Shown here piece by piece: positions 19,193-43,935 of a stretch of 64,000 nucleotides of DNA. The translations under genes were made by a program, and so were the position numbers. Under the pieces are notes generated by a model, which had not been told where the DNA came from, made no database searches, and saw nothing but the letters and a program-made list of their open reading frames with translations. The first letter of the stretch is position 1. Each line of letters starts with the position of its first letter. This DNA comes from an uncultured Elusimicrobia bacterium. GTDB lineage: Bacteria > Elusimicrobiota > Elusimicrobia > UBA1565 > UBA9628. Location: contig CAYHPY010000001.1 in NCBI GenBank assembly GCA_964358485.1, positions 81,382-145,381 of the forward strand. The letters run 5' to 3'.

Positions 19193-19199
19193 TTATAGT

Positions 19200-19262
19200 A
19201 AAAATAGGGACACCCCCCATTTTTACCATCGCTTGGTAAAAATGGGGGGTGTCCCTATTTTT
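19200..19262 (-). terminator. 28-bp perfect inverted repeat (hairpin) at the lysC stop codon, likely a bidirectional terminator
   Basis: aaaaatagggacaccccccatttttacc / atcgctt / ggtaaaaatggggggtgtccctattttt: perfect 28-bp arms, a 7-nt loop and T-runs on both sides. Lies between the lysC stop and the exonuclease start. Confidence 0.5.
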
Positions 19263-20493
19263 ATTTTCTGGTTAGGCCGTAGGCTTTGTGGAGGGCGCGC
19301 AGGGCGGTTTCGGCGTGGCGGGAGTCCACCACGCAGGAGATCCGCAGGTCGGAGGCGGTGATCATGTGGATGTTGACCCCGGCCTTGGCCAAGGTCTCGA
19401 ACATCCGAGCCGCCACCCAGGGGTGGTGCCGGAAACCCGTGCCCACCGCCGAGACCTTGGCCACGGATTCATTCAAGTCCACCCGGGCCTTGAGCTCGCG
19501 GGCCACCTTCTCCAGCGCCGCCACGGCTTTGGAGCTTCCGGCGCGGGGCGTCATGAAAGAAATCGCGTTGACGCCTTCCTTGGAGGGCGCCGACTGGATG
19601 ATCATGTCCAGCGGGATGGCCTTGGCCGCCAAGGCCGACAGGATGCGGGCGGCCACGCCGGGGCGGTCCGGAACGTCGGCCACCGTCAGGCGCACCTCGC
19701 CCTTGTCCAGGGCCAGGCTCGAGACATAGGCTTTTTCCATCGCGCGGTTTTTCATGCCTCTCCTTTTACTCACGATCCAGGTTCCGTTTTGGGGGTGGAA
19801 GGCCGAGCGGACATGGATGTCCACCTTGTAGCGGCGGGCGACTTCCAGGGACCGCGCCTGCATGACCTGGGCGCCGGCTCCGGCCAGCTCCAGCATTTCT
19901 TCAAAGGTGAGCCGCTGGAGCTTGCGGGCCTGGGGGACGACGCGCGGGTCGGCGGTGTAGACGCCCTTGACGTCGCTGAAAATCTCGCAGGCCCCGGTCT
20001 TAAGGGCCGAGGCCAGGGCCACCGCGGTCAAGTCCGAACCGCCCCGGCCCAAAGTGGTGACGTCGTCGCTGGGGTTGAGAGCCTGAAAGCCCGCCACGGT
20101 CACGATCCGCCCGGCCTTGAGATGCGCCCGAATCCGGTCGGTCCGGATGCGGACGATCTGCGCTTTGGTGTGGGCTCCGGCCGCCACGATGCCCGCCTGC
20201 GGGCCGGTCAAGGAAACCGCGGGCGCGCCGCGGCCGATGCACGCCATGGCAAACAGGGAAATCCCCACCTGCTCGCCGGTGGAGACCAGCTGATCCAGCT
20301 CCCGCTCGTCGGGCTCGGGGACCACGCGGGCGGCCAGCTCCAGAAGCTCGTCGGTCATCTCTCCGGGGGCCGAGACCACCACCACCACGGCATAGCCCGC
20401 CCGGCGCAAAGCCACGGCCCGGTCGGCCGCCCGCTGGATCTTCTCGGGATCAGCCACCGAGGTCCCGCCGAACTTGAGCACTTTGATCTTCAT
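19261..20493 (-). CDS. lysC: aspartate kinase with C-terminal ACT domains
   Basis: MKIKVLKFGGTSVADPEKI...VVVVSA is the classic aspartokinase N-terminus. The start is trimmed to the ATG at 20493 (the track ORF extends upstream). Confidence 0.9.
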   Translation of the reverse strand: MKIKVLKFGGTSVADPEKIQRAADRAVALRRAGYAVVVVVSAPGEMTDELLELAARVVPEPDERELDQLVSTGEQVGISLFAMACIGRGAPAVSLTGPQAGIVAAGAHTKAQIVRIRTDRIRAHLKAGRIVTVAGFQALNPSDDVTTLGRGGSDLTAVALASALKTGACEIFSDVKGVYTADPRVVPQARKLQRLTFEEMLELAGAGAQVMQARSLEVARRYKVDIHVRSAFHPQNGTWIVSKRRGMKNRAMEKAYVSSLALDKGEVRLTVADVPDRPGVAARILSALAAKAIPLDMIIQSAPSKEGVNAISFMTPRAGSSKAVAALEKVARELKARVDLNESVAKVSAVGTGFRHHPWVAARMFETLAKAGVNIHMITASDLRISCVVDSRHAETALRALHKAYGLTRK

Positions 20494-20587: not shown

Positions 20588-21730
20588 GTGATCCAGCGCC
20601 CACGCGCCCTGCGGGCCGTTCGTTCCTTGCTGATCCGCCATCCCGTCGTTGCCCTCTTGGGCGCCCGCCAAGTCGGAAAAACCACCTTGGCCCGGGAGGT
20701 TCAGCGGGGTTTTGGCGGATCGTCCTCTTGGTTCGACTTGGAGGATCCCGCGCACCTGGCCCGCTTGTCGGAGCCGATGCTCGGATTGCGGGGCCTCAAG
20801 GGCTTAGTCGTGATCGACGAAGTCCAGCGCCTCCCGGGTTTGTTCCCGGCTTTGCGCGTCCTGGCCGACCGTCCGGGCCGGCCCGCCCGTTTTTTGCTCC
20901 TGGGAAGCGCGTCTCCCGACATCCGCCGGCAGGGCGCGGAGTCCTTGGCCGGAAGAATCGCCCATTACGCGTTGGGGCCCCTGGCGCTGGACGAGGTCGG
21001 CCGGCCCGCCCTGAACCGTCTTTGGCTGCGGGGGGGATTGCCGCGGTCCTTTCTGGCCCGCTCCGAGGCGGTCGGCGCCGAGTGGCGCAGGGAGTTCGTC
21101 GCCAGCTTTCTGGAGCGCGATTTGGGGCAGTTGGGCTTCCGGTTCCCGGCCCAGACCATGCGCCGGTTTTGGACCATGCTGGCCCATTATCATGGGCAGA
21201 TTTGGAACGCGGCGGAGTTCGCGCGCTCCTTCGGGGTCGCGGACACCACGGTCCGCGGTTATCTGGACGCCCTCTCGGCCAGCTTCCTGGTCCGCCAGCT
21301 TCAGCCTTGGCACGAGAACCTGGGCAAGCGCCAGGTCAAATCCCCCAAGATCTATATTTCGGACTCGGGACTCCTGCACACCTTGCTCGGTCTTGAGACC
21401 ATGCCCCAGCTTCAGAGCCATCCGAAGCTGGGCGCCTCTTGGGAGGGTTTCGCCTTGGAGATCGTGGTCCGGGTCCTGGGCGCCCGGCCCGAGGAGTGCT
21501 TCTTCTGGGCCACCCACGCTGGGGCCGAATTGGACCTGCTGATCGTCAAAGGCGGCAAGCGCCTGGGTTATGAGTTCAAATTCACCGAGGCTCCGGCCCT
21601 GACCCCATCCATGAAGATCGCGTTCAAAGACTTGCGGCTGGACTCCCTGCAAGTCCTCCACGCCGGGCAGGACGGCTTCCCGCTCGCCGACGGCGTGCGG
21701 GCCGTGCCGTTGGCCGCTTTTAAGCCTTAA
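20588..21730 (+). CDS. AAA+ ATPase with C-terminal DUF4143 (COG1373-like)
   Basis: Walker A LLGARQVGKTTL, Walker B LVVIDEVQ, and a downstream DUF4143 region (IYISDSGLLHTLLGL...HPKLGASWEGFALE). A GTG start at 20588 is proposed. Confidence 0.7.
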   Translation: MIQRPRALRAVRSLLIRHPVVALLGARQVGKTTLAREVQRGFGGSSSWFDLEDPAHLARLSEPMLGLRGLKGLVVIDEVQRLPGLFPALRVLADRPGRPARFLLLGSASPDIRRQGAESLAGRIAHYALGPLALDEVGRPALNRLWLRGGLPRSFLARSEAVGAEWRREFVASFLERDLGQLGFRFPAQTMRRFWTMLAHYHGQIWNAAEFARSFGVADTTVRGYLDALSASFLVRQLQPWHENLGKRQVKSPKIYISDSGLLHTLLGLETMPQLQSHPKLGASWEGFALEIVVRVLGARPEECFFWATHAGAELDLLIVKGGKRLGYEFKFTEAPALTPSMKIAFKDLRLDSLQVLHAGQDGFPLADGVRAVPLAAFKP

Positions 21731-22641: not shown

Positions 22642-23670
22642 TTAAATCCTGGCCCCGCCCGCCAAGTCCTTGGCCGAGACCGTCCGGCGGCGGAACTTGA
22701 AGGTCAAAGGGGTTTCCGGGTCCTTGAGGCCGTGGCCCGTGAGCACGCAGACGATCTTGCCCTTAAGAGGATAACCCTGCCGCGCGCACTTAAGCAGGCC
22801 CGCCACGCCGGCCGCGCTGGAGGGCTCGCAGAACACCCCTTCGGCCTTGGCCAAGAGCCGGTAGGCCGCCAAAATCTCCTTGTCGGTGACCGAATCGATC
22901 AAGCCGCCGGACTCGTCGCGGGCCTTGAGCGCCCCGTCCTTGGAAACCGGATTGCCGATGCGGATGGCGGAGGCCACCGTCTTGGGCTTGTCCACCGTGC
23001 GCCCCAGGACCAAGGGGGCCGCGCCCGCGGCCTGATAGCCCATCATCCGGGGGCGCAGGCCCAGCTCGGAGTAGCCGCGCCAGTAGGCGGTGATGTTTCC
23101 GGCGTTGCCCACCGGCATGAACTGAAAATCGGGGGCCTGGCCCAACTGCTCGGCCACCTCGAAGGCGGCGGTCTTCTGGCCCTCCAGGCGGTACGGGTTG
23201 GTGGAGTTGACCAAGGTGTAGCCCAGCTTGACGGCTTGCCGGCGCGCCAGCTCCAGGGCCTGGTCGAAATTGCCGCTCACCTCCACCGTCTCGGCGCCGT
23301 GCATGAGGGCCTGGGCCAGCTTTCCCTGGGCCACCGCCCCCTTGGGCAAAAACACCACGCAGCGCAGGCCCGCCCGCGCGGCGTAGGCGGCGGCGGACGC
23401 GGCGGTGTTTCCCGTGGAGGCGCACAGCACGCCCTTGGCCCCTTCCTCCACCGCCTTGGAGATGGCCAAGGTCATCCCGCGGTCTTTGAAGGAGCCGGTC
23501 GGGTTCATCCCTTCCAGTTTTAAATAGACCGCGCCCGTCGTCAGCCCCGCCGACGCCGCGATCAGGTCCGCCCGCAGCAAGGGGGTGTCGCCCTCGTGGA
23601 GGGTGACGATCGGCGTCTTGTCGGTGACCGGCAGGCGCTCGCGCCAGCGTTGGATGATTCCGGATGTCAC
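22642..23670 (-). CDS. thrC: threonine synthase (PLP-dependent)
   Basis: PLP-lysine region NPTGSFKDRGMTLAISKA and CASTGNTAASAAAYAARAG; its stop abuts the thrB start. Confidence 0.9.
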   Translation of the reverse strand: MTSGIIQRWRERLPVTDKTPIVTLHEGDTPLLRADLIAASAGLTTGAVYLKLEGMNPTGSFKDRGMTLAISKAVEEGAKGVLCASTGNTAASAAAYAARAGLRCVVFLPKGAVAQGKLAQALMHGAETVEVSGNFDQALELARRQAVKLGYTLVNSTNPYRLEGQKTAAFEVAEQLGQAPDFQFMPVGNAGNITAYWRGYSELGLRPRMMGYQAAGAAPLVLGRTVDKPKTVASAIRIGNPVSKDGALKARDESGGLIDSVTDKEILAAYRLLAKAEGVFCEPSSAAGVAGLLKCARQGYPLKGKIVCVLTGHGLKDPETPLTFKFRRRTVSAKDLAGGARI

Positions 23671-23789
23671 GGCGACCAGTTTACATTTTTGGGGGGCCGG
23701 CCTTCATTGACTTCACTTGTTGCACGGGATAAAATGTCCCGGTCCAGGACCGAGTTCCGCGTAGGCCGCAAATTGCAATACAGACTTGC

Positions 23790-23935
23790 AATTTGCAGTA
23801 AAGGTCTACCTGCGGGACAGCGGCCCGCTCCACGCCCTGCTGGAGCTGCCCTCCGCCGGGGAGTTGCTGGGCCATCCCGCCCATCGCGTCGGCCAAGGCG
23901 TCTCCCGCGTAGAGCTTCGGCCGGAAGGAGTTTGA
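23790..23935 (+). pseudogene. remnant of a second DUF4143 AAA ATPase gene (internal fragment of about 45 codons)
   Basis: The + strand translation KVYLRDSGPLHALLELPSAGELLGHPAHRVGQGV...stop aligns to the KIYISDSGLLHTLLGL region of the intact ATPase at 20588-21730. Its 3' portion shares a 45-bp repeat with the 3' end of the nucleotidyltransferase gene. Confidence 0.4.
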
Positions 23936-23967
23936 ATTTCCTACAATGCGACTTAGATAAATTCCCG

Positions 23968-25263
23968 ATGATGAAAGCGAAGACGGCCCTTCTTCTGCTC
24001 CTCACTCTCTGTCTCTGTCCATTCGGAGGACGCGCATTTGCGGCGACGGAGAACGTGTTCCGTAAGCACAAGAATGCCGTTCTGCGCGTGCGCATTCTCG
24101 AGCGCTCCTCGGGCGCGCAAGCGAGCGTGGGCTCCGGGTTCTTCGTGGGGCGCGGCGGGCTGGCCGTCACCAACTTTCACGTCGTCGCCCACCTTGTTTG
24201 GAAGCCGGGCTCCTACGAGGCCGTGGGCGTGCTTGAAAACGACGAATCGAAGCGCGTCGAGCTTTTGGCCGTGGACGTCGTCCATGATCTGGCGGTGCTC
24301 CGCATCGAGGGAGCGCCGACGCAATCTCTCATCCTGTCGGCCTCCATCCCCCCCAAGGGTCAACGGCTCTACGCCTTGGGCAATCCACATGACCTCGGGA
24401 TGACGATCATCGAGGGAAGCTACAGCGGCCTGCTTGAGGACTCTTTGGTCCAGACGGTGCATCTGACGGGAACCTTGAATCCCGGCATGAGCGGGGGTCC
24501 GGTGCTCAACGGCTCTGGACAGGTCGTGGGGGTTTCGGTGGCGAGCGCGGGAGACGAGGTGAGCTTCCTGGTGCCGGTGGCCTTCGTCAAGACCCTCGTT
24601 GAAAACGCCCCGGCCTCCGCCACTCCGGAGGCGTTGCGGGCGGCCGTGTCCTCCCAGCTCGCGTCCCACCAGGAGACCATCGCCGGCCGACTCACCGGGT
24701 CGCCCTTCCAAACGCAGAGCCTGGGGCCCTTCCAAGTTCCGGGGAAGCTTTCTCCGGCCTTCCGCTGCTGGGCCAACTCGGATGAAGCCGAGGGGCAGCC
24801 CTATGAAGTCATCCACTCGCAATGCGATGCCGACGGCACCGTCTTCATAAATGACAGGCTTAACACCGGCACGATTGACTTCGCGCATCACATGCTTGAG
24901 GGGGGGAGCCTCAACGCCTTCCGGCTCTCCGCTCTGCAGAAGCGCTATTTCCATGAGAACTCCTCGTTCGCCGGGGAAGCCGGGGGCTTTCTGTGGGCGG
25001 GCATGGGCCAGGAGGACCAGGATCTGACTCCTTATGATTGCTCTTCGTCCACCGTCGAATCGAGAGAGCTCGTTTTAAAGGCCATCATCTGCCTGCGCGC
25101 CTACAAAAAGTTCCCGGGCCTCTACGACATGCAGTGGAGGGGGACTTCCTTTGTGGACAGCCGCCGCGCGTTCACGTCCTATCTCACGGTCGAGGGAACT
25201 TCGCGCGAGAACGCGGAAAAGTTCCTGCGCCGGTATCTGGAGGCATTCACGTGGAAGAAGTAG
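23968..25263 (+). CDS. secreted trypsin-like serine protease (S1C/Do-like, no obvious PDZ)
   Basis: Signal peptide MMKAKTALLLLLTLCLCPFGGRAFA, His region VTNFHVV, Asp region DLAVLRI, and catalytic Ser motif GMSGGPV. The start is trimmed to 23968. Confidence 0.75.
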   Translation: MMKAKTALLLLLTLCLCPFGGRAFAATENVFRKHKNAVLRVRILERSSGAQASVGSGFFVGRGGLAVTNFHVVAHLVWKPGSYEAVGVLENDESKRVELLAVDVVHDLAVLRIEGAPTQSLILSASIPPKGQRLYALGNPHDLGMTIIEGSYSGLLEDSLVQTVHLTGTLNPGMSGGPVLNGSGQVVGVSVASAGDEVSFLVPVAFVKTLVENAPASATPEALRAAVSSQLASHQETIAGRLTGSPFQTQSLGPFQVPGKLSPAFRCWANSDEAEGQPYEVIHSQCDADGTVFINDRLNTGTIDFAHHMLEGGSLNAFRLSALQKRYFHENSSFAGEAGGFLWAGMGQEDQDLTPYDCSSSTVESRELVLKAIICLRAYKKFPGLYDMQWRGTSFVDSRRAFTSYLTVEGTSRENAEKFLRRYLEAFTWKK

Positions 25264-25385
25264 GGCCGCCGCCTGCTTCGCCGCCTCCCGCCGCGGAGGC
25301 GGGCCCGGGCCCGGTTGCCTGGATCGAGAGAGGGACGACGACGGCGCTGATCCTCCTGGTCACGATCCCGACCGACGCGGTGGTG

Positions 25386-25940
25386 ATGTACAACGCGATG
25401 TATCAGCGCGTCTCGCCGCCCATGATCGGGTTCATCGTGATGACTTGGCTTATTTCGAATCTCGTGATGTTCCTCCCTTGGTCCGGCCTCTGGGCGTTGG
25501 CCACCAAGGTATTCCGGCGGCGCGCGCGCTTCATCGGCCATCTCAATACCGCCCTGCTCGCGGGCCTCCTGTGGACCTGGCTGCGCGGGTCCCTGGACGT
25601 TGTCGTGTTCGCCGTGTCCGCCGACGATCAACGCAGCGTGCCGTACTTCTTGCTTCTCGGCGCGGCCTTGTCGGCCACGCTCTGGGGGCACCTGCGGCTG
25701 GTCTCCACGGCGTCCCCGCGCCGGCTGGGGGGCGTTGCCATCATCATCGGCGCGTTCGTTGTCGGGATCGCCTCCGGCGTTCGGGCGCTTGCCATCCGGC
25801 GCACCCCCGCCGCGCGGACCGCCGACATTACGATCTTTCCGCATTTCCTGCGGCTCACGGCTCCGGTGTCAATCGAGCGCCACATTCAGTCCCTGGATGG
25901 ACTCAAGAAAACGGTCGACGCGCGCGCGAAGGAACTCTAA
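25386..25940 (+). CDS. hypothetical integral membrane protein
   Basis: Several hydrophobic helices (IGFIVMTWLISNLVMFLPWSGLWALA, GVAIIIGAFVVGIASG) downstream of the protease. The start is ambiguous (25314-25386). Confidence 0.4.
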   Translation: MYNAMYQRVSPPMIGFIVMTWLISNLVMFLPWSGLWALATKVFRRRARFIGHLNTALLAGLLWTWLRGSLDVVVFAVSADDQRSVPYFLLLGAALSATLWGHLRLVSTASPRRLGGVAIIIGAFVVGIASGVRALAIRRTPAARTADITIFPHFLRLTAPVSIERHIQSLDGLKKTVDARAKEL

Positions 25941-26006
25941 AGACCGCCGTTTCCGGGGGAAGTGTGTGGCGTCCTTTTTGGCGGCTAGCCCCAAAGCTTC
26001 GCCGGT

Positions 26007-26858
26007 TCAGCGCGGAGTCGACGCGCCCATCGCGTCGGCCAAGGAGTCCCCCGCGTAAAGCCTCGGCAAGATCCCGCCCGGCCGTCCGAAATGAGGCGCG
26101 CAGTCGACGGGGGCCCCGGGGCCCGGCAGCACGAACCGCCGTTCTTGGGGGGAATAATACAGGCAGCCCGCTTCCTCCGAAGGGCGGCTCCTCGCGAAGG
26201 CCTCCGCGCCCTCCAACGCTGCCAGCCACTGGGTTTTGAGGGCGGTCGGTTCCACCGGCGCGGCCAGGTGGAGACGCTCGAAATCCACCGGCTGGTAGCG
26301 CCCCCGGCGGCGGATGAGGTCCAGCAGGGAGATCGGGGTAAATCCCGGGTCCTTGCCGACCGCCGCCCAGAGCAGGGCCGGGAAGGGGAGGAGCTCCGCG
26401 TGGGCGTAGAGCACGTCCAGGAAATCCCGAGGCTCGTCGCGGCCGGCCAGCGCCAGGACTTTGTTGACGGCCAGATCCACGGGATGAAGCGCCCAGCCCG
26501 CGCCGGCCAGGCGCACGGCGGGCATGAAACGCCACGCCGAGTCGTGCGCCCATTCGATCTTCACTCCCTGGTCCCCGGCCTCGGCCAGCGCCCGGATGTA
26601 TCCGGGCTGAGCGACTTGGACCGACACCGCGATGCCGTTGTCCTCCAAGACCTTGCGGTCGGCCGCGAAGGCCGTGGCCACCCGCTCCGCGGAATCATGA
26701 AAGTAGTCCAGGTCATTGCTGAAACGCTTGGACTCCGGGCGAAAATGCAGGGCCGCCGCTCCGGCCAGGTGGCTGTCGGGAGTCCGATTTGGGGCCAGCA
26801 AGAGGGAGACCTTCGCTTGAAAAGGAGTTAGCGGCATAAGCGCGCCGCCGTTTCCCAA
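26007..26858 (-). CDS. nucleotidyltransferase, AbiEii/AbiGii-like (DUF1814) putative toxin
   Basis: N-terminal region KVSLLLAPNRTPDSHLAGAAALHF...RFSNDLDYF matches the AbiEii nucleotidyltransferase fold signature (GG.AL...R.S.DLD.F). Confidence 0.65.
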   Translation of the reverse strand: MGNGGALMPLTPFQAKVSLLLAPNRTPDSHLAGAAALHFRPESKRFSNDLDYFHDSAERVATAFAADRKVLEDNGIAVSVQVAQPGYIRALAEAGDQGVKIEWAHDSAWRFMPAVRLAGAGWALHPVDLAVNKVLALAGRDEPRDFLDVLYAHAELLPFPALLWAAVGKDPGFTPISLLDLIRRRGRYQPVDFERLHLAAPVEPTALKTQWLAALEGAEAFARSRPSEEAGCLYYSPQERRFVLPGPGAPVDCAPHFGRPGGILPRLYAGDSLADAMGASTPR

Positions 26859-27094
26859 GCTTGCCGCCCGCCGTGTTTTTTAAGCTGCTCCACCACCCAG
26901 GGGATGTCGGACGCCGTCAGGGGGCGGGCGGGATCGAAGGACCAAAAGCAGGAGGTCTGGAATTTTCGGAAGGCGCGGCGGGCTTCCCGAAGGCGGACCA
27001 TTTCCCTGGCCGTTTCCGGGGGCAGGACGCGGCGGCTCTTGGCGCCCCCACGGCGGCCGATTTCGGATAGGTAGCGGCGAATGGACTGGTCCAT
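26828..27094 (-). CDS. small basic protein, putative cognate partner or antitoxin of the nucleotidyltransferase
   Basis: The 88-aa ORF overlaps the NTase start by 31 bp (a TA-like arrangement) and contains LSEIGRRGGAKSRRVLPPETAREMVRLREARR. It is not a canonical AbiEi. Confidence 0.45.
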   Translation of the reverse strand: MDQSIRRYLSEIGRRGGAKSRRVLPPETAREMVRLREARRAFRKFQTSCFWSFDPARPLTASDIPWVVEQLKKHGGRQAWETAARLCR

Positions 27095-27160
27095 TGGTAT
27101 ATTATAAGCCGCTTATGATAAAAAGTCAATATTACGGCCCCTGGCAGTCCTGGGCCGTGT

Positions 27161-28453
27161 TTACAGCATCCGCAGAACGGTATGCTTGGCGGCCACGGAC
27201 CCCAGCCGCAAAATCTCGCGGCGGGCGGCGTCCACCTGGCCGTGCTCGGCCTCATGGGTGGTCAGGACTATGGGCACGCCCCAGCGCGTGCGCTCGGCCG
27301 GCTGGTGGATGGTGGCAATCGAGATCCCGCGCCCGCCCAACGCCTTGGCGATGGACGCCAGCACCCCGGGCTTGTCCTGGGCGTGAAAGCGCAGGTAGAA
27401 CGGGGCCTTGGACTGGGCCACGGCAATCAAGCGCGACGGCCGCCGGTCCAGCTTGCGGGCGGGGATCGAGCCCAAAAGATCGCGGGACAGCATGAACACG
27501 TCGCCCACCACGGCGCTGGCGGCCGGTCCCGGGCCCGCGCCCTTTCCGTAGAACATCAGGTCCCCGGCGGAGGAGGCCCGGACCAAGAGGGCGTTGAACT
27601 CCCGGTGCACCGAGGCCAGCGGATGGGCCAAAGGCACCAAGGTGGGAAACACATGCGCCTCCACCCCCACCGACGCGCCCCAGTCCAGCTTCAAGGAGCC
27701 CAACAGCCGCACGGTGCGGCCCAGCTCCTCCTTGGCGAAGGCCAAATCCGCCTCGTGCAGGTTCTCGATCCCTTCGCGGGCGATCTTCATGGACGGCAAA
27801 GAGGTCCCCGTCAGCAAGGAGGCCAGCACCGAGACCTTGTGCGCGGTGTCGGTGCCATTTAAATCCAAGGTGGGGTCCTTCTCGGCCAAGCCTTTTTCCT
27901 GAGCCTCCTTCAAAGCGGCCTGTAGGGGAATGCCTTCCTGCGCGCGGCTTAAAATGTAGTTCGTGGTCCCGTTCAAAATCCCCGTCACCGCTTCAATCGT
28001 GTTGCCCGCCAGGCCGTTGTCTAAAGCCTCGATGATGGGAATGCCGCCCGCCACGCTGGCCTCGAAATAAAGGCGCGCCCCGCGCCGGGCGGCGGCCTTC
28101 TGCAGTTCGGGCCAGCAATGGGCCAGCAGGCGCTTGTTGGCGGTGACCACATTCATGCCCGACTCCAGGGAGAACAAGACCAGTCGCCGCGCGTCCTCCA
28201 GGCCGCCGATCACCTCCACGATGATGTCGATCCCGGGGTGGCTGACGAGTTGGCGGGGGTCGGTGGTCTGATAGACGTCTTTGCCCAGGCCGAGAGCTTT
28301 GGCCTCTTTCTTGACCTGGCGGTCGCAGACGGCGCCGATAACGATGTCGGCGCCCAGTCGCCGGGAGAATTTCTCTCGATTGGCCTGCAGGAGGCGAATG
28401 GTTTCCCGTCCGACGAAGCCCAGGCCGGCGACGGCCACGTTGATGGTTCTCAC
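27161..28453 (-). CDS. hom: homoserine dehydrogenase with C-terminal ACT domain
   Basis: N-terminal Rossmann VAVAGLGFVGRE, catalytic region LYFEASVAGGIPII and NGTTNYIL, plus a C-terminal ACT domain. Confidence 0.9.
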   Translation of the reverse strand: MRTINVAVAGLGFVGRETIRLLQANREKFSRRLGADIVIGAVCDRQVKKEAKALGLGKDVYQTTDPRQLVSHPGIDIIVEVIGGLEDARRLVLFSLESGMNVVTANKRLLAHCWPELQKAAARRGARLYFEASVAGGIPIIEALDNGLAGNTIEAVTGILNGTTNYILSRAQEGIPLQAALKEAQEKGLAEKDPTLDLNGTDTAHKVSVLASLLTGTSLPSMKIAREGIENLHEADLAFAKEELGRTVRLLGSLKLDWGASVGVEAHVFPTLVPLAHPLASVHREFNALLVRASSAGDLMFYGKGAGPGPAASAVVGDVFMLSRDLLGSIPARKLDRRPSRLIAVAQSKAPFYLRFHAQDKPGVLASIAKALGGRGISIATIHQPAERTRWGVPIVLTTHEAEHGQVDAARREILRLGSVAAKHTVLRML

Positions 28454-28463
28454 GGGAGGGAGT

Positions 28464-30908
28464 TTACTTTTTTTGGGGTGTTATCTTTATGACGATTGGT
28501 AGGCAATCCACGAATTCCGCAACCACGCGGAAGTCATCCTCTCCTGCATTTTCAAGGATGATGGGCTCGAATTCCGGATTGATCGGCGATAATGTAATCC
28601 GGACTCGTTTCCAGGCGCCCTCGTCAGTGACCCCGACCTCGCTCGAGTACTTCTTTACGGTATACCGGCCGTCGTTCTCAGGGTCACAGATCAAGCGGCT
28701 TTCGACTAGGACGATCTTGCCATTCCGGCTCCCACCTCTTTCCCATCGGAAAATGCACCAAGCTCCGTCCGGAATTCTTGGGAGCATTGACCGGCCTTTG
28801 ACGAAGGTAACGAACATGTCTCGATTCAGCCGCCAGCCTGAGGGAACTTCCACCCAGCCAAGGGGGTTTGTTTTTTGCTCCTCGGTGAATTCACCCGCGG
28901 CCACGGCGAGGGAGAAAACCGGGAGGTGCGTGACGTGCTGTGCGGTGAGCGCGATATTGGGCAGGATAAATGGTTCCGGTGCCGGGTTGATCTCAAGCGG
29001 AGGCGTGACGGCGTGACGGGCGGCGTTCGTGAGGTGCTCTTGCAGGTAGGCGCTCAGGTCCGTGTCCTCGCACCATACAAAGCAGCCCTTCCGGCCGCGC
29101 GTCAGCAAAGTTTTATACGTTCCTTTGATGATTTCCTGGACCCGGTCGAGAATCGCCTTTTCCGCCGCCGACTTTCCCTTCGCCGCGAGTAGGTCGGATT
29201 TCCAGCCCTTCAAAGATGAGTCGGTCTTGGCGCGCATTTCGGGGATGCCGACGACCTTCCCATCCTTTAATGAGAGGTCGCCCCCAATTAGGACGCCGAG
29301 CCAGTCGAATTCAAGGCCTTGGCAGGTATGAATGCAGCCGACCTGTCCGATGCCGTCCGGGCTGGTGGCCCAATTTTCCCCATCAAAATTCCATGGAAGC
29401 TTCAACTCATCGGCCGCCACGTGCTTGGTGCCGGCACCGCGCCCGCGTCCCTGCTTTGGCCAATCCCATGAGTAGCCCGCGATGAGGCGCGCCTTGTTGG
29501 CCGCGTTTTTGGCCCTGAGCGCGGCGTAAAGGTCTTCGGCCCTCTCGAAAACGCGAAAATCGTATTCGTTATCCCAGCCCGCGGCGGCCCCAGTTCCTCC
29601 GACTTGAAGAACTTGATCGAGCCAATTTAAATATCCAGTGGAGCCGTTGCAGCGGAACTGGGCCGATAACCGCAAGGGCTCCTGCATCTCGGCGTTAAAC
29701 TTTTTCGCGGCTTTTCTGATCGCCGCCACGGAGCCGATGTCGTTCCAGGAAACCGTTTGGCCCTCATCGATGAAAAATACGCTGACGCGGGCCGCTCGAA
29801 CCATGTCTTCGACCATGCTGTTGCCTTTGTACTGAAACGCCCCTTTCCCTTTGAGGCGATGGGCCTCATCGATTATCAGCACTTCAAATTGCCGGTCCTT
29901 GCGGTAATCGACGTCGTGGAAGGTCCATGAGGAATTCAAAAGTTGACGGCCATCTTCTCGATACCCCCGGTTTCCGCGGGATAATTGCTCTATCAACGTT
30001 TTTCGGAAGGCGGCGTTGGGGGCCACGAAGAATCCCGCCCGCTTTTCCTTTAGAATTTCGGAGAGCAGGCGAATTGCAATGACGGATTTTCCGGTTCCGG
30101 GCCCGCCCTCGATTATGAAGACATGTCGCTTGGTTAAATTCTTTTTGGTGAGGATTTCGTGGCGGACAATTTGAAATGCCTCGTACTGCTCATTGATCAA
30201 GAAGAACTCCGGATTTCCATCCAGCATGCTGCTAACTCGTCCGATCAGTTCGTCGGACGGCCGCATCTTGCCGTTTTCGATAAGGAACATCACATCCCGC
30301 TTGGGTTTCAGCGGAACGACGGTTTCGAGGTATTTTTTCAGTTCTTGGGAATCGTTCGCCAGAAATAGCCGCGAATCTTTCAACAGATCCTTGTACTTGG
30401 GGTCCTCCAAAGGTTCCGGCTTTCGACGATTTAGGTTGAAGAGATAGGCCGCGGCATGGAGGGAAATGGCCGCTTGCCGGACATCTTCGTTGAAGTTCAG
30501 AATCAGCCCTTTGTAGCCCAGCGCCTGGGCGGATGGGTGCTGAGTTATTTTCCCGCCGCCCACGGGAGCCCAGACCATGTCCTCCGGTCCGGCCGCCCTG
30601 GCATCTGCCCACGCCTTAAGTTCAATGATTAGCCCGTTGTCGGTTTTGCCGTCATTGCCGGACAGAAGAACATCCACGCGGAAGCGGCCCGCGGCCGAAA
30701 CATGATACTCGATGGCCACCTGCACCTCATCCTCGACTTGGGCGTTGCCCAAAGCTATTGAAAAGCGCGCGTATTCGTCCGCCCACACTCTCTGATCGCT
30801 GGGGACGCTGCCGGTCTTTTCCCGGAACTTGGTTACAAGCATCGATTGTAGCCGGTTTGCGTTGACATCTTCGAGGAACCCGGCTCTGGACGATTGATAG
30901 ATAATCAT
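28464..30908 (-). CDS. three-domain fusion: PD-(D/E)xK-like nuclease N-domain, DUF2075 (Schlafen-like) ATPase/helicase, and C-terminal LexA/S24-like autopeptidase
   Basis: N-terminus: RFRVDVLL...IIELKAW (D...ELK nuclease-like). Middle: Walker A IIEGGPGTGKSVIA, Walker B VLIIDEAHRL, DUF2075-like core. C-terminus: VAAGEF (LexA Ala-Gly cleavage-site-like), then about 36 aa later GRSMLP (Ser nucleophile, cf. GDSMxP), TVKKY (Lys of the Ser-Lys dyad) and LSPINPEFEPI (LexA C-terminal motif). The ATG overlaps the Fic stop by 4 bp. Confidence 0.75.
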   Translation of the reverse strand: MIIYQSSRAGFLEDVNANRLQSMLVTKFREKTGSVPSDQRVWADEYARFSIALGNAQVEDEVQVAIEYHVSAAGRFRVDVLLSGNDGKTDNGLIIELKAWADARAAGPEDMVWAPVGGGKITQHPSAQALGYKGLILNFNEDVRQAAISLHAAAYLFNLNRRKPEPLEDPKYKDLLKDSRLFLANDSQELKKYLETVVPLKPKRDVMFLIENGKMRPSDELIGRVSSMLDGNPEFFLINEQYEAFQIVRHEILTKKNLTKRHVFIIEGGPGTGKSVIAIRLLSEILKEKRAGFFVAPNAAFRKTLIEQLSRGNRGYREDGRQLLNSSWTFHDVDYRKDRQFEVLIIDEAHRLKGKGAFQYKGNSMVEDMVRAARVSVFFIDEGQTVSWNDIGSVAAIRKAAKKFNAEMQEPLRLSAQFRCNGSTGYLNWLDQVLQVGGTGAAAGWDNEYDFRVFERAEDLYAALRAKNAANKARLIAGYSWDWPKQGRGRGAGTKHVAADELKLPWNFDGENWATSPDGIGQVGCIHTCQGLEFDWLGVLIGGDLSLKDGKVVGIPEMRAKTDSSLKGWKSDLLAAKGKSAAEKAILDRVQEIIKGTYKTLLTRGRKGCFVWCEDTDLSAYLQEHLTNAARHAVTPPLEINPAPEPFILPNIALTAQHVTHLPVFSLAVAAGEFTEEQKTNPLGWVEVPSGWRLNRDMFVTFVKGRSMLPRIPDGAWCIFRWERGGSRNGKIVLVESRLICDPENDGRYTVKKYSSEVGVTDEGAWKRVRITLSPINPEFEPIILENAGEDDFRVVAEFVDCLPIVIKITPQKK

Positions 30909-32011
30909 AATGTTTGTGGCCTCAATGAATAGCTCGTGCTCCGCCCCCCCGCCGCCTCCTTAACCAGTATCCCATGCCCAATCAACCCCACAATATCCCG
31001 CTGCGCCGTATCGTGCGAACATTTCATCAGCAACGCCCACTTCGTCGTCGTCAGCTTCCCCTTGAACTCCCCATCCAACAGCCTATTCAGCATCCCCCGC
31101 TGCCTCTCGTTAAGCGAGAGATGGGCGCAAGTCTTCCAGAACGCCTCCTTCTCCAGGGCGGCCTTTAAAGACGCCTGCGCCCCCAAAATGGCGCGGTCCA
31201 GGCAAGCCAAAAACCAAAGCATCCAGTCGGTGATGTCGAGGGTTCCCTTCCCGGTGGCTTCAAGGATCGCGTAGTAGGCCTTGCGCTCCAGCTGGATTTG
31301 CGCCGACATGCTGTAGCAGCGCCGGGCTCTGTTCTCCGACCGGGCCAGCGCCCAGTCCGCGATGGCGCGGGCGACCCGGCCGTTGCCGTCGTCGAAGGGG
31401 TGGATGTTCACGAACCATAGGTGCGCCTGCGCGGCCCGGAGCAGGGGGTCGAGGTCGCCGGGCCGGTTGGCCCATTGGAAGAAGGCGCTCATTTCCGATT
31501 CCAGGCGCTCCGCCGCCGGCGCCTCGTAGTGGACTTTTTCAAGCCCGATGGCGCCGGACACCACCTGCATGGGGCCCGCGGCGTCGTCGCGCCAGCGGCC
31601 GACTTGCACGCGCTGCGGGGCGATGGGAAACAGCGACCGGTGCCAGTCCAGCAGGCGCTCCTGGGTCAGGGGTTGGGAATAGTTCCGCGTGGCTTCCAGC
31701 GTCATGTCCACCACGCCCTCCACGCGGCGGTCCGCGGGTGTGAGGCCCGCGATGTCTAGCCCCAAGCGGCGGGCGATGGAAGAGCGCACTTGGTCCGGGT
31801 TAAGGAACTCGCCCTCGATCTCGCTGGATTTGACGACGTCCTGGGTGAACGCTTTTAGGACGGCCTCGTTCTGCTGCGAGAAGCCGAGGCTTTCCAGCGA
31901 GCCGATGAGCTGTCCTTGCCTTAGGCGCGCGGCCGCCAGGGGCTGGACCAGGGCTTCCTGGCGCCAGTGGAAATTGGGCCAGTCATCGTGTTCGTGGATG
32001 TATTTGGTCAT
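30905..32011 (-). CDS. fic: Fic/Doc family protein (putative AMPylase) with N-terminal DUF4172-like region and C-terminal wHTH-like region
   Basis: Canonical Fic motif HPFDDGNGRVAR (HPFx[DE]GNGR). 368 aa; the stop overlaps the downstream fusion gene start (ATGA). Confidence 0.85.
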   Translation of the reverse strand: MTKYIHEHDDWPNFHWRQEALVQPLAAARLRQGQLIGSLESLGFSQQNEAVLKAFTQDVVKSSEIEGEFLNPDQVRSSIARRLGLDIAGLTPADRRVEGVVDMTLEATRNYSQPLTQERLLDWHRSLFPIAPQRVQVGRWRDDAAGPMQVVSGAIGLEKVHYEAPAAERLESEMSAFFQWANRPGDLDPLLRAAQAHLWFVNIHPFDDGNGRVARAIADWALARSENRARRCYSMSAQIQLERKAYYAILEATGKGTLDITDWMLWFLACLDRAILGAQASLKAALEKEAFWKTCAHLSLNERQRGMLNRLLDGEFKGKLTTTKWALLMKCSHDTAQRDIVGLIGHGILVKEAAGGRSTSYSLRPQTL

Positions 32012-32174
32012 AATACGCAGACTGTGCGTATATTATAATGCGTAAAGTTAATAATTTCAAGTCTTTATACGCTAAATGTTCGTAGAATAAGCGAATTAAT
32101 CTACGCATGGTGGCTACTTGACGAAATCCCGCCGACCTGCTAAACTTGTTGTGTATAACTAACAACTGTTAGGT
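32012..32174. promoter_or_regulatory. AT-rich divergent promoter/operator region between the fic operon and the MNT/HEPN pair
   Basis: taatacgcagactgtgcgtatattataatgcgtaaag...tacgctaaatg...ctacgcatgg: five tacgc/gcgta half-sites, including the near-palindrome tacgcagac/tgtgcgta. Low GC relative to the flanks. Confidence 0.4.
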
Positions 32175-32804
32175 ATGACTAACGATATCCCCAGCGGCCC
32201 ATCGCTTCCCCAAGAAGACGCCCAAACGCGCGTCCTGAGATTCCTTTGGCGCAGCCGGAGCGAATGGAGCGGCCGGGAGGTCGCCCGCAAGGTGGGCTTG
32301 AGCGCGCCCGCCTGCCACGCGGCCCTCAAGAAGCTCGACGCCAGGGGGCTGGTTCTTTTCAGGCGCGTCTCGAACGTGCATCTATACCAGATTAACCCCG
32401 AGAACTATCTGGTCCAGAAGATCTTCGCGCGCCAATTCGAGGCCGAGGCGGCCATGCCCAAGGAGGTCGCCGCCCTGGTGGTGAAGTCCCTGGTCGATTC
32501 CCCCAAGACCGCCATCCAGGCCATCGTGCTTTTCGGCAGTATGGCGCGGGGCACGGGGCGCATCGGCAGCGACCTGGACCTCCTGGTTGTCCTTGCGGAG
32601 AAGGAAGGCGCCACGGCTCTGGAGCCGCGAATTGAGCGGCTAAGGGAACTGCTGTTCAAGCGCTTCAGCGTCCCTTTGTCGCCCTACATCCAAACCTTGT
32701 CCGAACTGAGGGAAAAGCACCAACAAAAGCTGCCGTTGATCGGAGAGATTCTTAAAGACGGACGGACCATTTACGGCCAAGAAATCAAGGAGTTGCTGCC
32801 ATGA
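32175..32804 (+). CDS. minimal nucleotidyltransferase (MNT/MntA-like) with N-terminal wHTH, putative antitoxin
   Basis: Pol-beta-type NTase motif LFGSMARGTGRIGSDLDLLVV, and an N-terminal wHTH (SGREVARKVGLSAPACHAALKKLDARGLV). Confidence 0.75.
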   Translation: MTNDIPSGPSLPQEDAQTRVLRFLWRSRSEWSGREVARKVGLSAPACHAALKKLDARGLVLFRRVSNVHLYQINPENYLVQKIFARQFEAEAAMPKEVAALVVKSLVDSPKTAIQAIVLFGSMARGTGRIGSDLDLLVVLAEKEGATALEPRIERLRELLFKRFSVPLSPYIQTLSELREKHQQKLPLIGEILKDGRTIYGQEIKELLP

Positions 32805-41853: not shown

Positions 41854-43118
41854 CCCAATTCCTATCCGAGCAGAACCCCGATAGGCCGCTGCACTTCAAT
41901 CATTGGATGAAAGCGAAAGGGATGGGAGCGGAGGGCCCTCCCGGGTTGGTCGGCGCCCTCCAGGATCCCAACCAAAAAGCGGGCGAGCTGCTGTCAACCG
42001 CCCGCCAGGCTCAATTGGAAGGCGCCCGCGTTTTCGACGGCAAGAAATCCCTGCCTGACTGGGACAAGGACACTTTGCCGGTGAAGCCTGATTGGGGCGG
42101 GGCAAGCCGGGTGCCCTACGCGGGGGATGTGGAGCGGCGCTTGGGCTCCCTCTTAAGCGCCTCGGCGGAGACCCACCTGGCCAAGAACCCGGCGGGCCGT
42201 GAACTGCTGGACCGCTTCCGCGGCAAGGACGGCAAGGTGGAGCTGCCCGCCTTCCTCATCCTGCCGATCAACGACTCCATGGACGCCGCCTACTCGGCCC
42301 CCAACAAGGCGCTGATCTTCAATCAGACCTACGTCGTCAGGGGGATGACGGAAAAACTTCCCGAGAGGAAGCGATCGGAGCTCCGCCGGGAGCTGGCCGA
42401 CCCCAAGAAGTTCGCGGAGTATCTGTTGGCGCATCCCGAGGCCCGGGACGCCTTCATCGCCGGCCACGATGTTCAGATGGTCCACGAGTTGACCCACGGG
42501 TTTCAGGACCGCCTGGGGACGTTGTCGGAGGAGCAGGAGCGGGGAAACCTGCCGCAGGGGACCATCATCGAGAAGGAGACGGAGGCCTTTTTCGCGCATG
42601 CCAAGTACCTGCATCACAAATTGGTGCAGGATCCGGAGTCTGTGAGGGACAATCCGAGACTTGAGGAGTATGCCGAATTCATTAAAAGCGCTGAGGTTTT
42701 GGAAAAGATTGTTTCCGATGCTTACACGCAGAATTATCCGACGGGGGCGGCGACATTCCCTACCCTGAAATCCATCCAGAGGGAACGGATCAGCCAGGCC
42801 CGAATTTTAATAGGAGAGAGCGCGTACGAGAAAATCGGTGAATTGAAGCTTCGAGGCTTGCAAGCCGGCATGAAGGAATTGGAGGCCGAAGAGAGCCGAG
42901 TTTCGGCCAGGATGCTAAAATTCATGAATGACGAATACCCAGCGATTCAAATGGAGGGGCGAAGGCGATTGGCCGCCCTGTATATCGTGAAGGCGCGGCT
43001 TGAGCCGGAATGGTATAAACGGGATGGGTATTTAAATTCCGCCAAAGACTTGGTTTCCGATGAAAAATCTTTGCGCCTGATTGCGAGCTTGCGCACGGAG
43101 CCGCCCGAGGACGAATAA
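41787..43118 (+). CDS. HExxH-motif protein (putative zincin-like metallopeptidase)
   Basis: Contains VHELTHGF (HExxH). A TTG start is inferred (the first ATG is at 41814). Its 3' third is duplicated at 43936-44211. Confidence 0.5.
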   Translation: MEIQAFKKSMEDAQRANSLERLTQFLSEQNPDRPLHFNHWMKAKGMGAEGPPGLVGALQDPNQKAGELLSTARQAQLEGARVFDGKKSLPDWDKDTLPVKPDWGGASRVPYAGDVERRLGSLLSASAETHLAKNPAGRELLDRFRGKDGKVELPAFLILPINDSMDAAYSAPNKALIFNQTYVVRGMTEKLPERKRSELRRELADPKKFAEYLLAHPEARDAFIAGHDVQMVHELTHGFQDRLGTLSEEQERGNLPQGTIIEKETEAFFAHAKYLHHKLVQDPESVRDNPRLEEYAEFIKSAEVLEKIVSDAYTQNYPTGAATFPTLKSIQRERISQARILIGESAYEKIGELKLRGLQAGMKELEAEESRVSARMLKFMNDEYPAIQMEGRRRLAALYIVKARLEPEWYKRDGYLNSAKDLVSDEKSLRLIASLRTEPPEDE

Positions 43119-43649: not shown

Positions 43650-43790
43650 AGCGTTTCGACTTGCCGCGGCGCCGTTTTTCCGGGGCTCTTGAGGCGCCCA
43701 GTGCATCCTGGAGCCGCCGCCGCCGTATCCTCGGCCTCGACCACAGCGCGTCTTCGGCCCCGGAAGGCGGCCTGCAGGCGCCGGAGCAAT
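43650..43790 (-). pseudogene. remnant of SEC-C-domain gene (internal deletion in duplicated copy A)
   Basis: The minus-strand fragment LRRLQAAFRGRRRAVVEAEDTAAA matches the C-terminal part of the intact gene at 44732-45799. Confidence 0.4.
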
Positions 43791-43807
43791 GGGGGCGCGG
43801 AATTAGG

Positions 43808-43850
43808 GAAAGCTTAAGTAGGGCGGTGCCAGGTATCCACTTTCTGCATT
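43808..43850. repeat. 45-bp junction repeat containing a solo MITE TIR
   Basis: agggaaagcttaagtagggcggtgccaggtatccactttctgca carries the 21-bp TIR (43825-43845). The same repeat ends duplicated copy B at 45838-45880. Confidence 0.6.
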
Positions 43851-43935
43851 CCCTACCCTGAAATCCATCCAGAGGGAACGGATCAGCCAGGCCCGAATTT
43901 TAATAGGAGAGAGCGCGTACGAGAAAATCGGTGAA

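What the first reader, a model, noticed from the sequence alone, without database searches (positions are those of the whole stretch)
23790..23935. AAA-ATPase (DUF4143) gene remnant sharing a 45-bp repeat with the 3' end of the nucleotidyltransferase gene
23878-23922 and 26014-26058 are about 90 percent identical (cgcccatcgcgtcggccaagg...). At 23.8 kb the plus strand reads as an internal DUF4143 ATPase fragment (KVYLRDSGPLHALLEL...), while its minus strand reads PKLYAGDALADAMGG. At 26.0 kb the same sequence forms the C-terminal tail PRLYAGDSLADAMGAS of the intact AbiEii-like NTase. This suggests a past recombination that fused ATPase-derived antisense sequence onto the NTase 3' end, or deleted most of an ATPase gene. 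It also marks the edge of the insertion between thrC and the protease.
Basis: seen in the sequence. Interest (0 to 1): 0.55.

Follow-up and report, generated by a model that had tools for sequence, protein, structure and literature searches.

The report
Two gene scraps in defence-gene insertion
The flagged 120 bases are two real gene scraps joined end to end, a piece of a DUF4143 ATPase gene and the tail of an AbiEii-type toxin gene; they are debris from mobile defence genes that split a threonine-synthesis operon, which is ordinary genome wear.

Summary
The repeat is real. The ATPase fragment is also real. The 31-residue peptide covering 23801-23878 has one hit among 1.84 billion proteins, a DUF4143 protein (78% identity, E 4e-4).

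The tail LP.LY.GD.LAD is native to this AbiEii-like family. It is present in every homolog at 72% identity or more and in distant ones from other phyla, none next to an ATPase in the seven contexts examined. So 23878-23921 is a relic of a nucleotidyltransferase (NTase) 3' end, abutting the ATPase relic tail to tail.

Sister Elusimicrobia have hom-thrC-thrB-lysC contiguous. Here about 3.5 kb sits between hom and thrC: the relics, a protease plus membrane-protein pair, and a small-protein plus NTase cassette. An intact PDC-S01/DUF4143 ATPase sits between thrB and lysC.

All four repeat mismatches are silent or conservative. That hints the relic came from a second, once-functional NTase copy, not from decay of a local duplicate.

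Verdict: ordinary pseudogene debris at a defence-gene insertion site. The exact history is unresolved because no close relative was found. Interest is low.

The parts
23801..23878 (+). Relic of a DUF4143 (PDC-S01-type) AAA ATPase gene: 26 in-frame codons, KVYLRDSGPLHALLELPSAGELLGHP, corresponding to about residues 292-317 of a roughly 400-aa protein
   Evidence: tblastn with the window's intact ATPase, E 0.005. Pfam DUF4143 positions 78-104, E 0.058. P0361, a DUF4143 protein, matches at 78% identity, E 4.3e-4 library-wide, and 57/78 nt identical. There is no nucleotide similarity to the resident ATPase.
23878..23921 (-). R1: relic of the 3' end of an AbiEii-like NTase gene (PKLYAGDALADAMG), truncated on both sides. 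It is the left copy of the 44-nt direct repeat.
   Evidence: 40/44 identical to 26024-26067. 85% identical over 40 nt to the 3' end of the P0002 gene in L004. Aligns with the 3' ends of four other family members.
26024..26067 (-). R2: the same tail (PRLYAGDSLADAMG) inside the intact NTase gene; right copy of the repeat
26007..26837 (-). Intact AbiEii-like nucleotidyltransferase. The likely start is MPLTPFQ at 26837; the mechanical ORF runs to 26858.
   Evidence: P0001 is 100% identical. 17 of 30 homologs hit PF08843 AbiEii. PADLOC AbiEii E 0.0029. The window protein itself has no Pfam or NCBIfam hit.
26828..27094 (-). 88-aa gene overlapping the NTase start by 10 nt; presumed partner or antitoxin of the cassette, in no known family
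   Evidence: The same 88-aa plus NTase pair, with the same overlap, occurs in L004, L005 and L010 in unrelated contexts. No Pfam, NCBIfam or PADLOC hit.
23968..25263 (+). Trypsin_2 (S1C-like) serine protease with a signal peptide; first gene of the pair enclosed by R1 and R2
   Evidence: Pfam Trypsin_2, E 7e-25. Closest homologs outside the same strain are only 53-57% identical.
25251..25940 (+). 229-aa membrane protein overlapping the protease stop by 13 nt; second gene of the pair
   Evidence: Gene call in L001. 45% identical orthologs follow the protease with the same 13-nt overlap in L018 and L022.
23747..23825 (.). Extended stem-loop. The core is a perfect 11-bp inverted repeat, GCAAATTGCAA-N7-TTGCAATTTGC, at 23768-23796. 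Its 3' arm includes the first codons of the ATPase relic.
   Evidence: DNA fold -22 kcal/mol, z = -5.3, 0 of 200 shuffles as stable.
23707..23735 (+). Promoter-like site TTGACT-17-TAAAAT facing the protease. If used, it would put the relics in a roughly 225-nt 5' leader.
   Evidence: Consensus scan only
27101..27129 (-). Promoter-like site TTGACT-17-TATAAT in front of the 88-aa gene
   Evidence: Consensus scan only
23679..23685 (.). GTTTACA, left copy of a 7-bp direct repeat at the outer edges of the whole insertion, 9 nt upstream of the thrC start
   Evidence: Weak: two random 40-nt windows share a 7-mer with P about 0.12.
27159..27165 (.). GTTTACA, right copy; it contains the hom stop codon (TAA on the minus strand)
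20588..21730 (+). Intact AAA_14 + DUF4143 ATPase (PDC-S01 candidate defence gene) inserted between thrB and lysC. It is not the source of the relic.
   Evidence: Pfam. PADLOC PDC-S01, E 5.6e-80. Absent from this position in L013 and L014. No nucleotide match to the relic.

Best explanation
The 121 bp at 23801-23921 are two pseudogene fragments joined tail to tail. One is 26 codons from the middle of a DUF4143/PDC-S01 ATPase gene on the plus strand. The other is 14-15 codons from the 3' end of an AbiEii-like NTase gene on the minus strand.

They are debris from earlier occupants of a site where mobile defence and toxin-antitoxin cassettes have repeatedly been inserted and lost, namely the hom|thrC junction of the threonine operon.

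Inferred history: an ATPase gene and an NTase cassette once lay convergently here. Illegitimate deletions removed the ATPase 3' part together with the last NTase codons, giving the sharp junction at 23877/23878. Further deletions removed the ATPase 5' part and the NTase body. The intact NTase now 2.1 kb away is a second, related copy. The 44-nt direct repeat is therefore homology between two family members, not a transfer of ATPase sequence.

The relic has no function of its own. Its only likely consequence is as a short substrate for recombination that could delete the enclosed protease and membrane-protein pair.

Shown: the identity of both fragments, the native origin of the tail, and the insertion relative to sister genomes. 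Inferred: the order of events and the two-copy origin.
For: 1. The repeat is real and non-random.
2. The tail LP.LY.GD.LAD is a family feature of the NTase. NTase 3' ends of other loci align with R1 at the DNA level.
3. The ATPase fragment is authentic, and its match to a genuine DUF4143 protein runs through LLGHP. It therefore ends exactly where R1 begins.
4. Sister Elusimicrobia L013 and L014 have hom, thrC, thrB and lysC contiguous or overlapping. Everything from about 23686 to 27158, and the ATPase at 20588-21730, is therefore inserted.
5. The 88-aa plus NTase pair sits in different contexts in L004, L005, L008 and L010, as a compact cassette whose NTase 3' end is its edge.
6. The neighbourhood is a defence island. 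It holds SoFic, an SLFN-helicase/S24 protein resembling AbiO/Nhi, a nucleotidyltransferase (NTP_transf_2) gene next to a HEPN gene, and PDC-S01.
7. All four R1/R2 differences are synonymous (2) or conservative (K/R, A/S). They fall on states seen in other family members, with no stop or frameshift. Four random substitutions do this with P = 0.035. This fits divergence between two functional copies better than decay of a duplicate.
Against: - No close relative with a different state of this locus was found. All contigs carrying it are the same strain, 99.8-100% identical. The order of events is therefore untested.
- The substitution-pattern argument rests on four sites.
- The exact flanking of the protease and membrane-protein pair by R1 and R2, in direct orientation, is what an insertion-associated duplication or a single-crossover integration would also give.
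- Three independent truncations are needed to leave fragments this short.
Confidence: 0.6

Rival explanations
1. The repeat was created when the protease and membrane-protein pair arrived. There are two versions. In one, a circular or linear DNA carrying the pair plus an NTase tail integrated by a single crossover within the resident NTase tail (Campbell-type, as with islands that carry a copy of their target gene's 3' end). In the other, the insertion duplicated 44 bp of target. R1 is then the displaced original tail, and R2 plus ASTPR* is the restored one.
For: R1 and R2 are direct repeats that bracket exactly one conserved two-gene module with minimal flanks: 46 bp before the protease start and 83 bp after the membrane-protein stop. 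The module occurs elsewhere as an independent pair. The functional gene keeps an intact, family-typical short tail, while the R1 copy runs on without a stop.
Against: There is no integrase, recombinase or transposase in the enclosed 2.1 kb. A target duplication of 44 bp is far longer than known transposition duplications. The nearest protease and membrane-protein modules (L018, L022) are not next to an NTase gene. If R1 were the original tail, the NTase would have carried a roughly 57-aa junk extension through antisense ATPase sequence. The mismatch pattern does not look like decay of the non-functional copy. The crossover version still needs two different NTase-tail-bearing DNAs, so it overlaps the main explanation.
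Confidence: 0.25
2. One reading: the NTase C-terminal tail was acquired from the antisense strand of an ATPase gene by recombination.
For: Only the adjacency of the two fragments at 23.8 kb.
Against: The tail is present across the NTase family in unrelated genomes without ATPase neighbours. Genuine DUF4143 proteins continue after LLGHP with xFGASWEGF, which the relic does not. In other words, the 44-mer is not ATPase sequence.
Confidence: 0.02
3. R1 is functional. It would be transcribed from the promoter-like site at 23707-23735 as part of the protease 5' leader, and there it is antisense to the 3' end of the NTase (toxin) mRNA. It could pair with that mRNA and couple or repress toxin expression.
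For: There is a promoter-like site upstream. The predicted intermolecular duplex is -112.8 kcal/mol against -62.8 +/- 5.7 for shuffles, and three of the four mismatches become G.U pairs (and own reading). The leader is somewhat structured, z = -2.5.
Against: Strong pairing is automatic for any 91% repeat. Three of three transitions being wobble-compatible has P = 0.125. There is no Rfam match. There is no conservation data, since only one strain carries it. No other NTase locus has such a second tail copy.
Confidence: 0.04

Closest known systems
Pseudogene debris in defence islands and insertion hot spots (turnover of mobile defence and toxin-antitoxin cassettes)
   Same: Short, truncated fragments of defence-type genes (PDC-S01 ATPase, AbiEii-like NTase) lie beside intact members of the same families. 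They sit among other defence genes (SoFic, an AbiO/Nhi-like helicase, a nucleotidyltransferase (NTP_transf_2) gene next to a HEPN gene) at a site that is empty in sister genomes.
   Different: The hot spot lies inside a core biosynthetic operon (hom|thrC and thrB|lysC) instead of beside a tRNA gene or an integrase. No mobility gene is present.
attL/attR repeats of integrative elements that carry a copy of the 3' end of their target gene
   Same: Imperfect direct repeats made of a gene's 3' end flank an inserted segment. The copy attached to the gene body keeps the gene intact.
   Different: The enclosed segment has no integrase or recombinase and is only 2.1 kb. The displaced copy lacks the natural stop. 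No empty site has been observed.
AbiE (AbiEi/AbiEii) type IV toxin-antitoxin / abortive-infection systems, including the MenAT relatives
   Same: The NTase belongs to a family whose members hit PF08843 and are annotated AbiEii/AbiGii. It is preceded by a small overlapping gene in a compact mobile two-gene cassette.
   Different: The partner is an 88-aa protein with no AbiEi (winged-helix, COG5340) signature. The window protein itself is below Pfam and NCBIfam thresholds. There is no match to solved structures by profile.
AAA_14 + DUF4143 ATPases (PADLOC candidate defence family PDC-S01)
   Same: The relic carries the family's most conserved motif, K.Y..DsGl.h.LL, and matches a family member at 78% identity.
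   Different: Only 26 codons remain, with no P-loop domain and no start or stop. It is not a copy of the intact ATPase 2 kb away.

Membership tests
DUF4143 / AAA_14 ATPase (PDC-S01): relic 23801-23878 | Sequence match to the DUF4143 domain | tested here: met
   P0361, a DUF4143 protein (Pfam E 4.5e-29), matches at 78% identity, E 4.3e-4 library-wide. tblastn with the window's intact ATPase gives E 0.005. The Pfam score of 13.6 bits is below the gathering score of 28.1. There is no PADLOC hit for the fragment.
DUF4143 / AAA_14 ATPase (PDC-S01): relic 23801-23878 | N-terminal P-loop AAA_14 domain and a complete open reading frame | tested here: not met
   Homology is limited to 26 codons. Upstream in frame there is a stop at 23762-23764 and no similarity. 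Downstream the frame reads NTase antisense. It is a fragment, not a gene.
AbiEii / DUF1814 nucleotidyltransferase toxin (PF08843): ORF 26007-26837(-) | Profile match to PF08843 | tested here: inconclusive
   The window protein has no Pfam or NCBIfam hit and a PADLOC AbiEii E of 0.0029. However, 17 of 30 homologs at 59-82% identity hit PF08843, best E 6.4e-9. NCBI names some of them AbiEii/AbiGii family.
AbiEii / DUF1814 nucleotidyltransferase toxin (PF08843): ORF 26007-26837(-) | Upstream AbiEi-type antitoxin (winged-helix transcriptional autorepressor) | tested here: not met
   The upstream gene is 88 aa and has no family match in Pfam, NCBIfam or PADLOC.
AbiEii / DUF1814 nucleotidyltransferase toxin (PF08843): ORF 26007-26837(-) | Nucleotidyl transfer to tRNA, and toxicity neutralised by the partner | not testable with these tools
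   Needs biochemistry or genetics.
NTase 3'-end relic: R1 23878-23921 | Homology to the family's C-terminal tail at both DNA and protein level | tested here: met
   40/44 nt identical to the resident gene and 34/40 to the L004 gene. It aligns with four other members. The tail motif is present in 38 of 107 homologs.
Integrative element with attL/attR | Direct repeats flanking the inserted DNA | tested here: met
   R1 and R2, 44 nt at 91% identity, bracket 23922-26023.
Integrative element with attL/attR | Integrase or recombinase encoded within or beside the element | tested here: not met
   Only a Trypsin_2 protease and an unassigned membrane protein lie between the repeats.
Integrative element with attL/attR | An unoccupied site in related genomes | not testable with these tools
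   No close relative was recovered. All contigs carrying the locus are the same strain. The collection scans found nothing.
Transposon-type insertion of the whole 3.5-kb block | Target-site duplication, terminal inverted repeats and a transposase | tested here: inconclusive
   A 7-bp direct repeat, GTTTACA, lies at both outer edges, but P is about 0.12 for any shared 7-mer. There are no significant terminal inverted repeats (32 of 500 shuffles score as well) and no transposase.

The most novel reading that the evidence does not exclude
R1 is kept because it works as RNA. Carried in the 5' leader of the protease mRNA, it would be a 44-nt antisense match (43/44 pairs counting G.U) to the 3' coding end of the AbiEii-like toxin mRNA. 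That would add an RNA layer of toxin control linking the two modules. Alternatively, R1 and R2 could serve as sites for reversible excision of the protease module.
Probability: 0.04. Interest if true: 0.6.

Novelty: already known. Interest (0 to 1): 0.15.

Why it matters
It matters little beyond annotation.

- The locus should be annotated as two pseudogene fragments, not as an ATPase remnant that donated sequence to a toxin gene.
- The case illustrates that mobile defence and toxin-antitoxin cassettes can colonise and turn over inside a core amino-acid biosynthesis operon (hom-thrC-thrB-lysC) in a groundwater Elusimicrobia genome. In doing so they break translationally coupled gene junctions and bring their own promoters.
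- The AbiEii-like family with an 88-aa partner, and the protease plus membrane-protein pair, are uncharacterised modules that might merit study in their own right.

Tried and rejected
- Genome-contig scan with the protease: only two distant hits at 28-30% identity, no synteny information.
- Metagenome-contig scan with a 26-mer spanning the ATPase|NTase junction: nothing.
- Degenerate pattern for YAGDxLADAMG: one chance hit, L020, which is not an NTase.
- Viral-contig scan with the relic ORF: nothing.
- Rfam at E <= 1 over 23400-27400: no match.
- PADLOC on the relic peptides: no hit.
- Profile of 30 NTase homologs against PDB sequences: no hit.
- The trypsin-like protease beside hom in sister locus L013 looked like a possible ortholog, which would have implied a rearrangement. 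It is unrelated.
- The 281-aa convergent neighbour of the protease module in L022 looked like a possible NTase. It is unrelated.
- An extended 71-nt version of the repeat (23851-23921, 76%) was rejected. The extra 27 nt are 52% identical, and that stretch matches a genuine DUF4143 protein through LPSA..LLGHP.
- Terminal inverted repeats at the ends of the 3.5-kb block: not significant.
- Second NTase-tail relics in other NTase loci: none.
- The relic as a copy of the resident ATPase: no nucleotide similarity.
- Literature: no paper mentions DUF4143 together with AbiEii.

Full report
**1. Observation**

The intergenic region between thrC (22642-23670, minus) and a protease gene (23968-25263, plus) is 297 bp.
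- Within it, 23878-23921 is a direct repeat of 26024-26067, with offset 2146, 40/44 identical and a longest exact run of 21 nt.
- blastn-short scores this at E = 5.8e-10 against the window plus fetched loci. It is the only significant non-self match of the region.
Otherwise the description and the quoted translations are accurate.

**2. The ATPase fragment is real**

On the plus strand, 23801-23878 reads KVYLRDSGPLHALLELPSAGELLGHP.
- The window's own intact AAA_14 + DUF4143 ATPase (20474/20588-21730) finds it by tblastn as its best non-self hit, E 0.005, 13/26 identical.
- Pfam DUF4143 gives a sub-threshold 13.6 bits.
- A phmmer search of the 31-residue peptide against 1.84 billion representative proteins returned exactly one protein, P0361, at E 4.3e-4 and 78% identity.
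- P0361 is a DUF4143 protein (Pfam E 4.5e-29) with ...[35 protein letters not shown].... At the DNA level 57/78 positions agree.

The match runs through LLGHP, so ATPase homology ends at 23878. After that, genuine family members read xFGASWEGF and the relic does not. Upstream of 23798 there is no similarity, and there is an in-frame stop at 23762-23764. There is no nucleotide similarity to the resident ATPase, so the relic is not a recent copy of it.

**3. The 44-mer is NTase sequence, not ATPase sequence**

The ORF 26007-26858(-) probably starts at MPLTPFQ, 26837. It has 3133 homologs at E <= 0.001.
- The window protein misses Pfam and NCBIfam thresholds.
- 17 of 30 homologs at 59-82% identity hit PF08843 AbiEii. 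PADLOC gives AbiEii at E 0.0029. NCBI names some members AbiEii/AbiGii family.

The C-terminal tail was examined across the family.
- Among the 120 best homologs, 107 contain PGGVLP. Of these, 38 continue x[LF]Y.G[DE] and 27 continue with GD.LAD-like sequence.
- All the closest homologs have it. Examples are P0002 ...PKFYEGDSLAEAMNAPGGEI, P0004 ...PDLYTGDSLADSMI and P0011 ...PRLYTGDSLADLLRDSSRGA.
- Distant ones have it too: P0088 ...PRFYRGDRLADTLRNIEL and P0119 ...PQFYDGDVLAENLTRMERIE.
- In the seven distinct genomic contexts fetched for the window's gene and for P0002, P0005, P0012 and P0015, no DUF4143 ATPase is adjacent.

It follows that 23878-23921 is a fragment of an NTase 3' end on the minus strand. 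It also matches the 3' end of the P0002 gene in L004 at 34/40 nt and aligns with the ends of four other members. It is truncated on both sides:
- Homology to NTase genes stops at the P of P(K/R)LY on the gene-body side (23921/23922).
- It stops after AMG on the distal side (23877/23878), so the last five codons and the stop are missing.

The ATPase and NTase fragments abut without spacer, tail to tail.

**4. Context**

Gene order in the window is:

lysC(-) | ATPase(+) | thrB(-) thrC(-) | relics, protease(+), membrane protein(+), NTase(-), 88-aa gene(-) | hom(-), SLFN-helicase/S24(-), Fic(-), a nucleotidyltransferase (NTP_transf_2) gene next to a HEPN gene.

The closest threonine synthases outside the same strain are only 76-80% identical. 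In two such Elusimicrobia, L013 and L014, hom, thrC, thrB and lysC are contiguous, with hom|thrC separated by 4 nt or overlapping.
- Everything between the hom stop (27161-27163) and the thrC start (23670), about 3.5 kb, is therefore inserted.
- The intact ATPase between thrB and lysC is also inserted.

PADLOC assigns the intact ATPase to PDC-S01 (E 5.6e-80) and the Fic protein to SoFic. The helicase resembles AbiO/Nhi. The operon has thus been colonised by defence-type genes.

The two intact modules in the insertion behave as independent units elsewhere.
- The 88-aa plus NTase pair, with the same 10-nt overlap, is a compact cassette found in unrelated contexts.
- The protease plus membrane-protein pair, with a 13-nt overlap, recurs at 53-57% and 45% identity in L018 and L022 with other neighbours, none of them an NTase.

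A 7-bp direct repeat, GTTTACA, lies at both outer edges of the block. One copy contains the hom stop. The other lies 9 nt before the thrC start. This is not significant on its own (P about 0.12), and there are no terminal inverted repeats.

All contigs carrying the relic are the same strain from Hainich groundwater samples, at 99.8-100% identity. There is no comparative information on the relic itself.

**5. How it arose**

The shown facts are:
- two short, doubly truncated fragments of mobile defence-type genes;
- a sharp junction between them;
- a position at the edge of an insertion in a defence-gene-rich region;
- an intact member of each family nearby.

The most economical reading is pseudogene debris. 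An ATPase gene (plus strand) and an NTase cassette (minus strand) once lay convergently at this site. Deletions then removed nearly all of both.

R1 could be a remnant of a second NTase copy or a duplicate of the resident tail. One piece of evidence bears on this. All four differences are synonymous (CTC/CTT Leu, GGA/GGG Gly) or conservative (K/R, A/S), and they fall on states present in other family members. In simulation, four random substitutions are all silent or conservative with P = 0.035. This hints at divergence under coding constraint, that is, two once-functional copies. I put 0.6 on this.

The main rival (0.25) is that the repeat was generated when the protease pair arrived. That could have been a single crossover within the tail, or a duplication, because R1 and R2 bracket exactly that module. 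Against it:
- There is no recombinase in the enclosed segment.
- 44 bp is far too long for a transposition target duplication.
- The nearest protease modules are not next to NTases.
- The original NTase would have had a roughly 57-aa junk extension.

The crossover version still needs two different NTase tails, so it overlaps the main model. The available data cannot settle the order of events.

**6. Function**

None is indicated.
- A promoter-like site (TTGACT-17-TAAAAT, 23707-23735) faces the protease. If used, it would place the relics in its 5' leader.
- There, R1 would be antisense to the toxin mRNA tail. The predicted duplex is -112.8 kcal/mol against -62.8 +/- 5.7 for shuffles, and three of the four mismatches become G.U.
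- Strong pairing is automatic for any 91% repeat, however. Three of three wobble-compatible transitions has P = 0.125.
- Rfam finds nothing, and no other NTase locus has such a second tail copy.

I keep this as the most novel reading not excluded, at about 4%.

**7. Verdict**

It is wrong on the headline idea: the NTase tail is native, and the 44-mer at 23.9 kb is an NTase relic. This is an ordinary by-product of cassette turnover, so novelty is 'already known' and interest is low.

Noticed in passing
window 23747-23825 (core 23768-23796): A strong stem-loop lies upstream of thrC and the protease. It has a perfect 11-bp inverted repeat, GCAAATTGCAA-N7-TTGCAATTTGC, unique in the window, extended by two further 7-bp helices. 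Its 3' arm includes the first codons of the ATPase relic. DNA fold z = -5.3. It could be an operator, an attenuator, or a fold-back scar of the rearrangement.
   Followed up: partly
window 23679-23685 and 27159-27165: A 7-bp direct repeat, GTTTACA, lies at the two outer edges of the 3.5-kb insertion. One copy contains the hom stop codon. It is a possible target duplication or a duplicated hom end, but it is not significant by itself (P about 0.12), and there are no terminal inverted repeats.
   Followed up: partly
window 42754-43215 / 43847-44308; also 43502-43582 / 44592-44672 and 43739-43792 / 45101-45154: An exact 462-nt direct repeat and two shorter exact repeats (81 and 54 nt) lie within about 2.5 kb. 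This looks like a recent segmental duplication or a repeated element.
   Followed up: no
window 47567-47819 / 50176-50428 (ORFs 47672-50055 and 50281-52703): An exact 253-nt direct repeat lies at the start of two tandem gene pairs of like size (284 aa + 510 aa and 284 aa + 523 aa). This suggests a tandem duplication of a two-gene unit.
   Followed up: no
window 19199-19263: A perfect 30-nt inverted repeat with a 5-nt loop (TAAAAATAGGGACACCCCCCATTTTTACCA / complement) lies just downstream of lysC.
   Followed up: no
window 20588-21730 and 28464-32804: The threonine operon is embedded in defence-type genes. A PDC-S01 ATPase sits between thrB and lysC. Beyond hom lie an SLFN-helicase with a Peptidase_S24 domain (AbiO/Nhi-like), SoFic (DUF4172-Fic), and a nucleotidyltransferase (NTP_transf_2) gene next to a HEPN gene.
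   Followed up: partly
window 26828-27094 (and L004, L005, L010): The AbiEii-like NTase family is consistently preceded by an 88-aa protein with no known family, overlapping the NTase start by 10 nt. This is not an AbiEi-type antitoxin, so it may be an undescribed partner type for this toxin family.
   Followed up: partly
NTase homologs P0001-P0120: The C-terminal tail is facultative. About a third of homologs carry x[LF]Y.G[DE]..LAD, sometimes with a longer extension. The rest end within a few residues of PGGVLPR.
   Followed up: yes
L016/L017 1800-3091: In two other assemblies of the same strain (99.8% identical) the protease gene is split into 292-aa and 123-aa ORFs by indels. This is either an assembly error or a population variant with a broken protease.
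   Followed up: no
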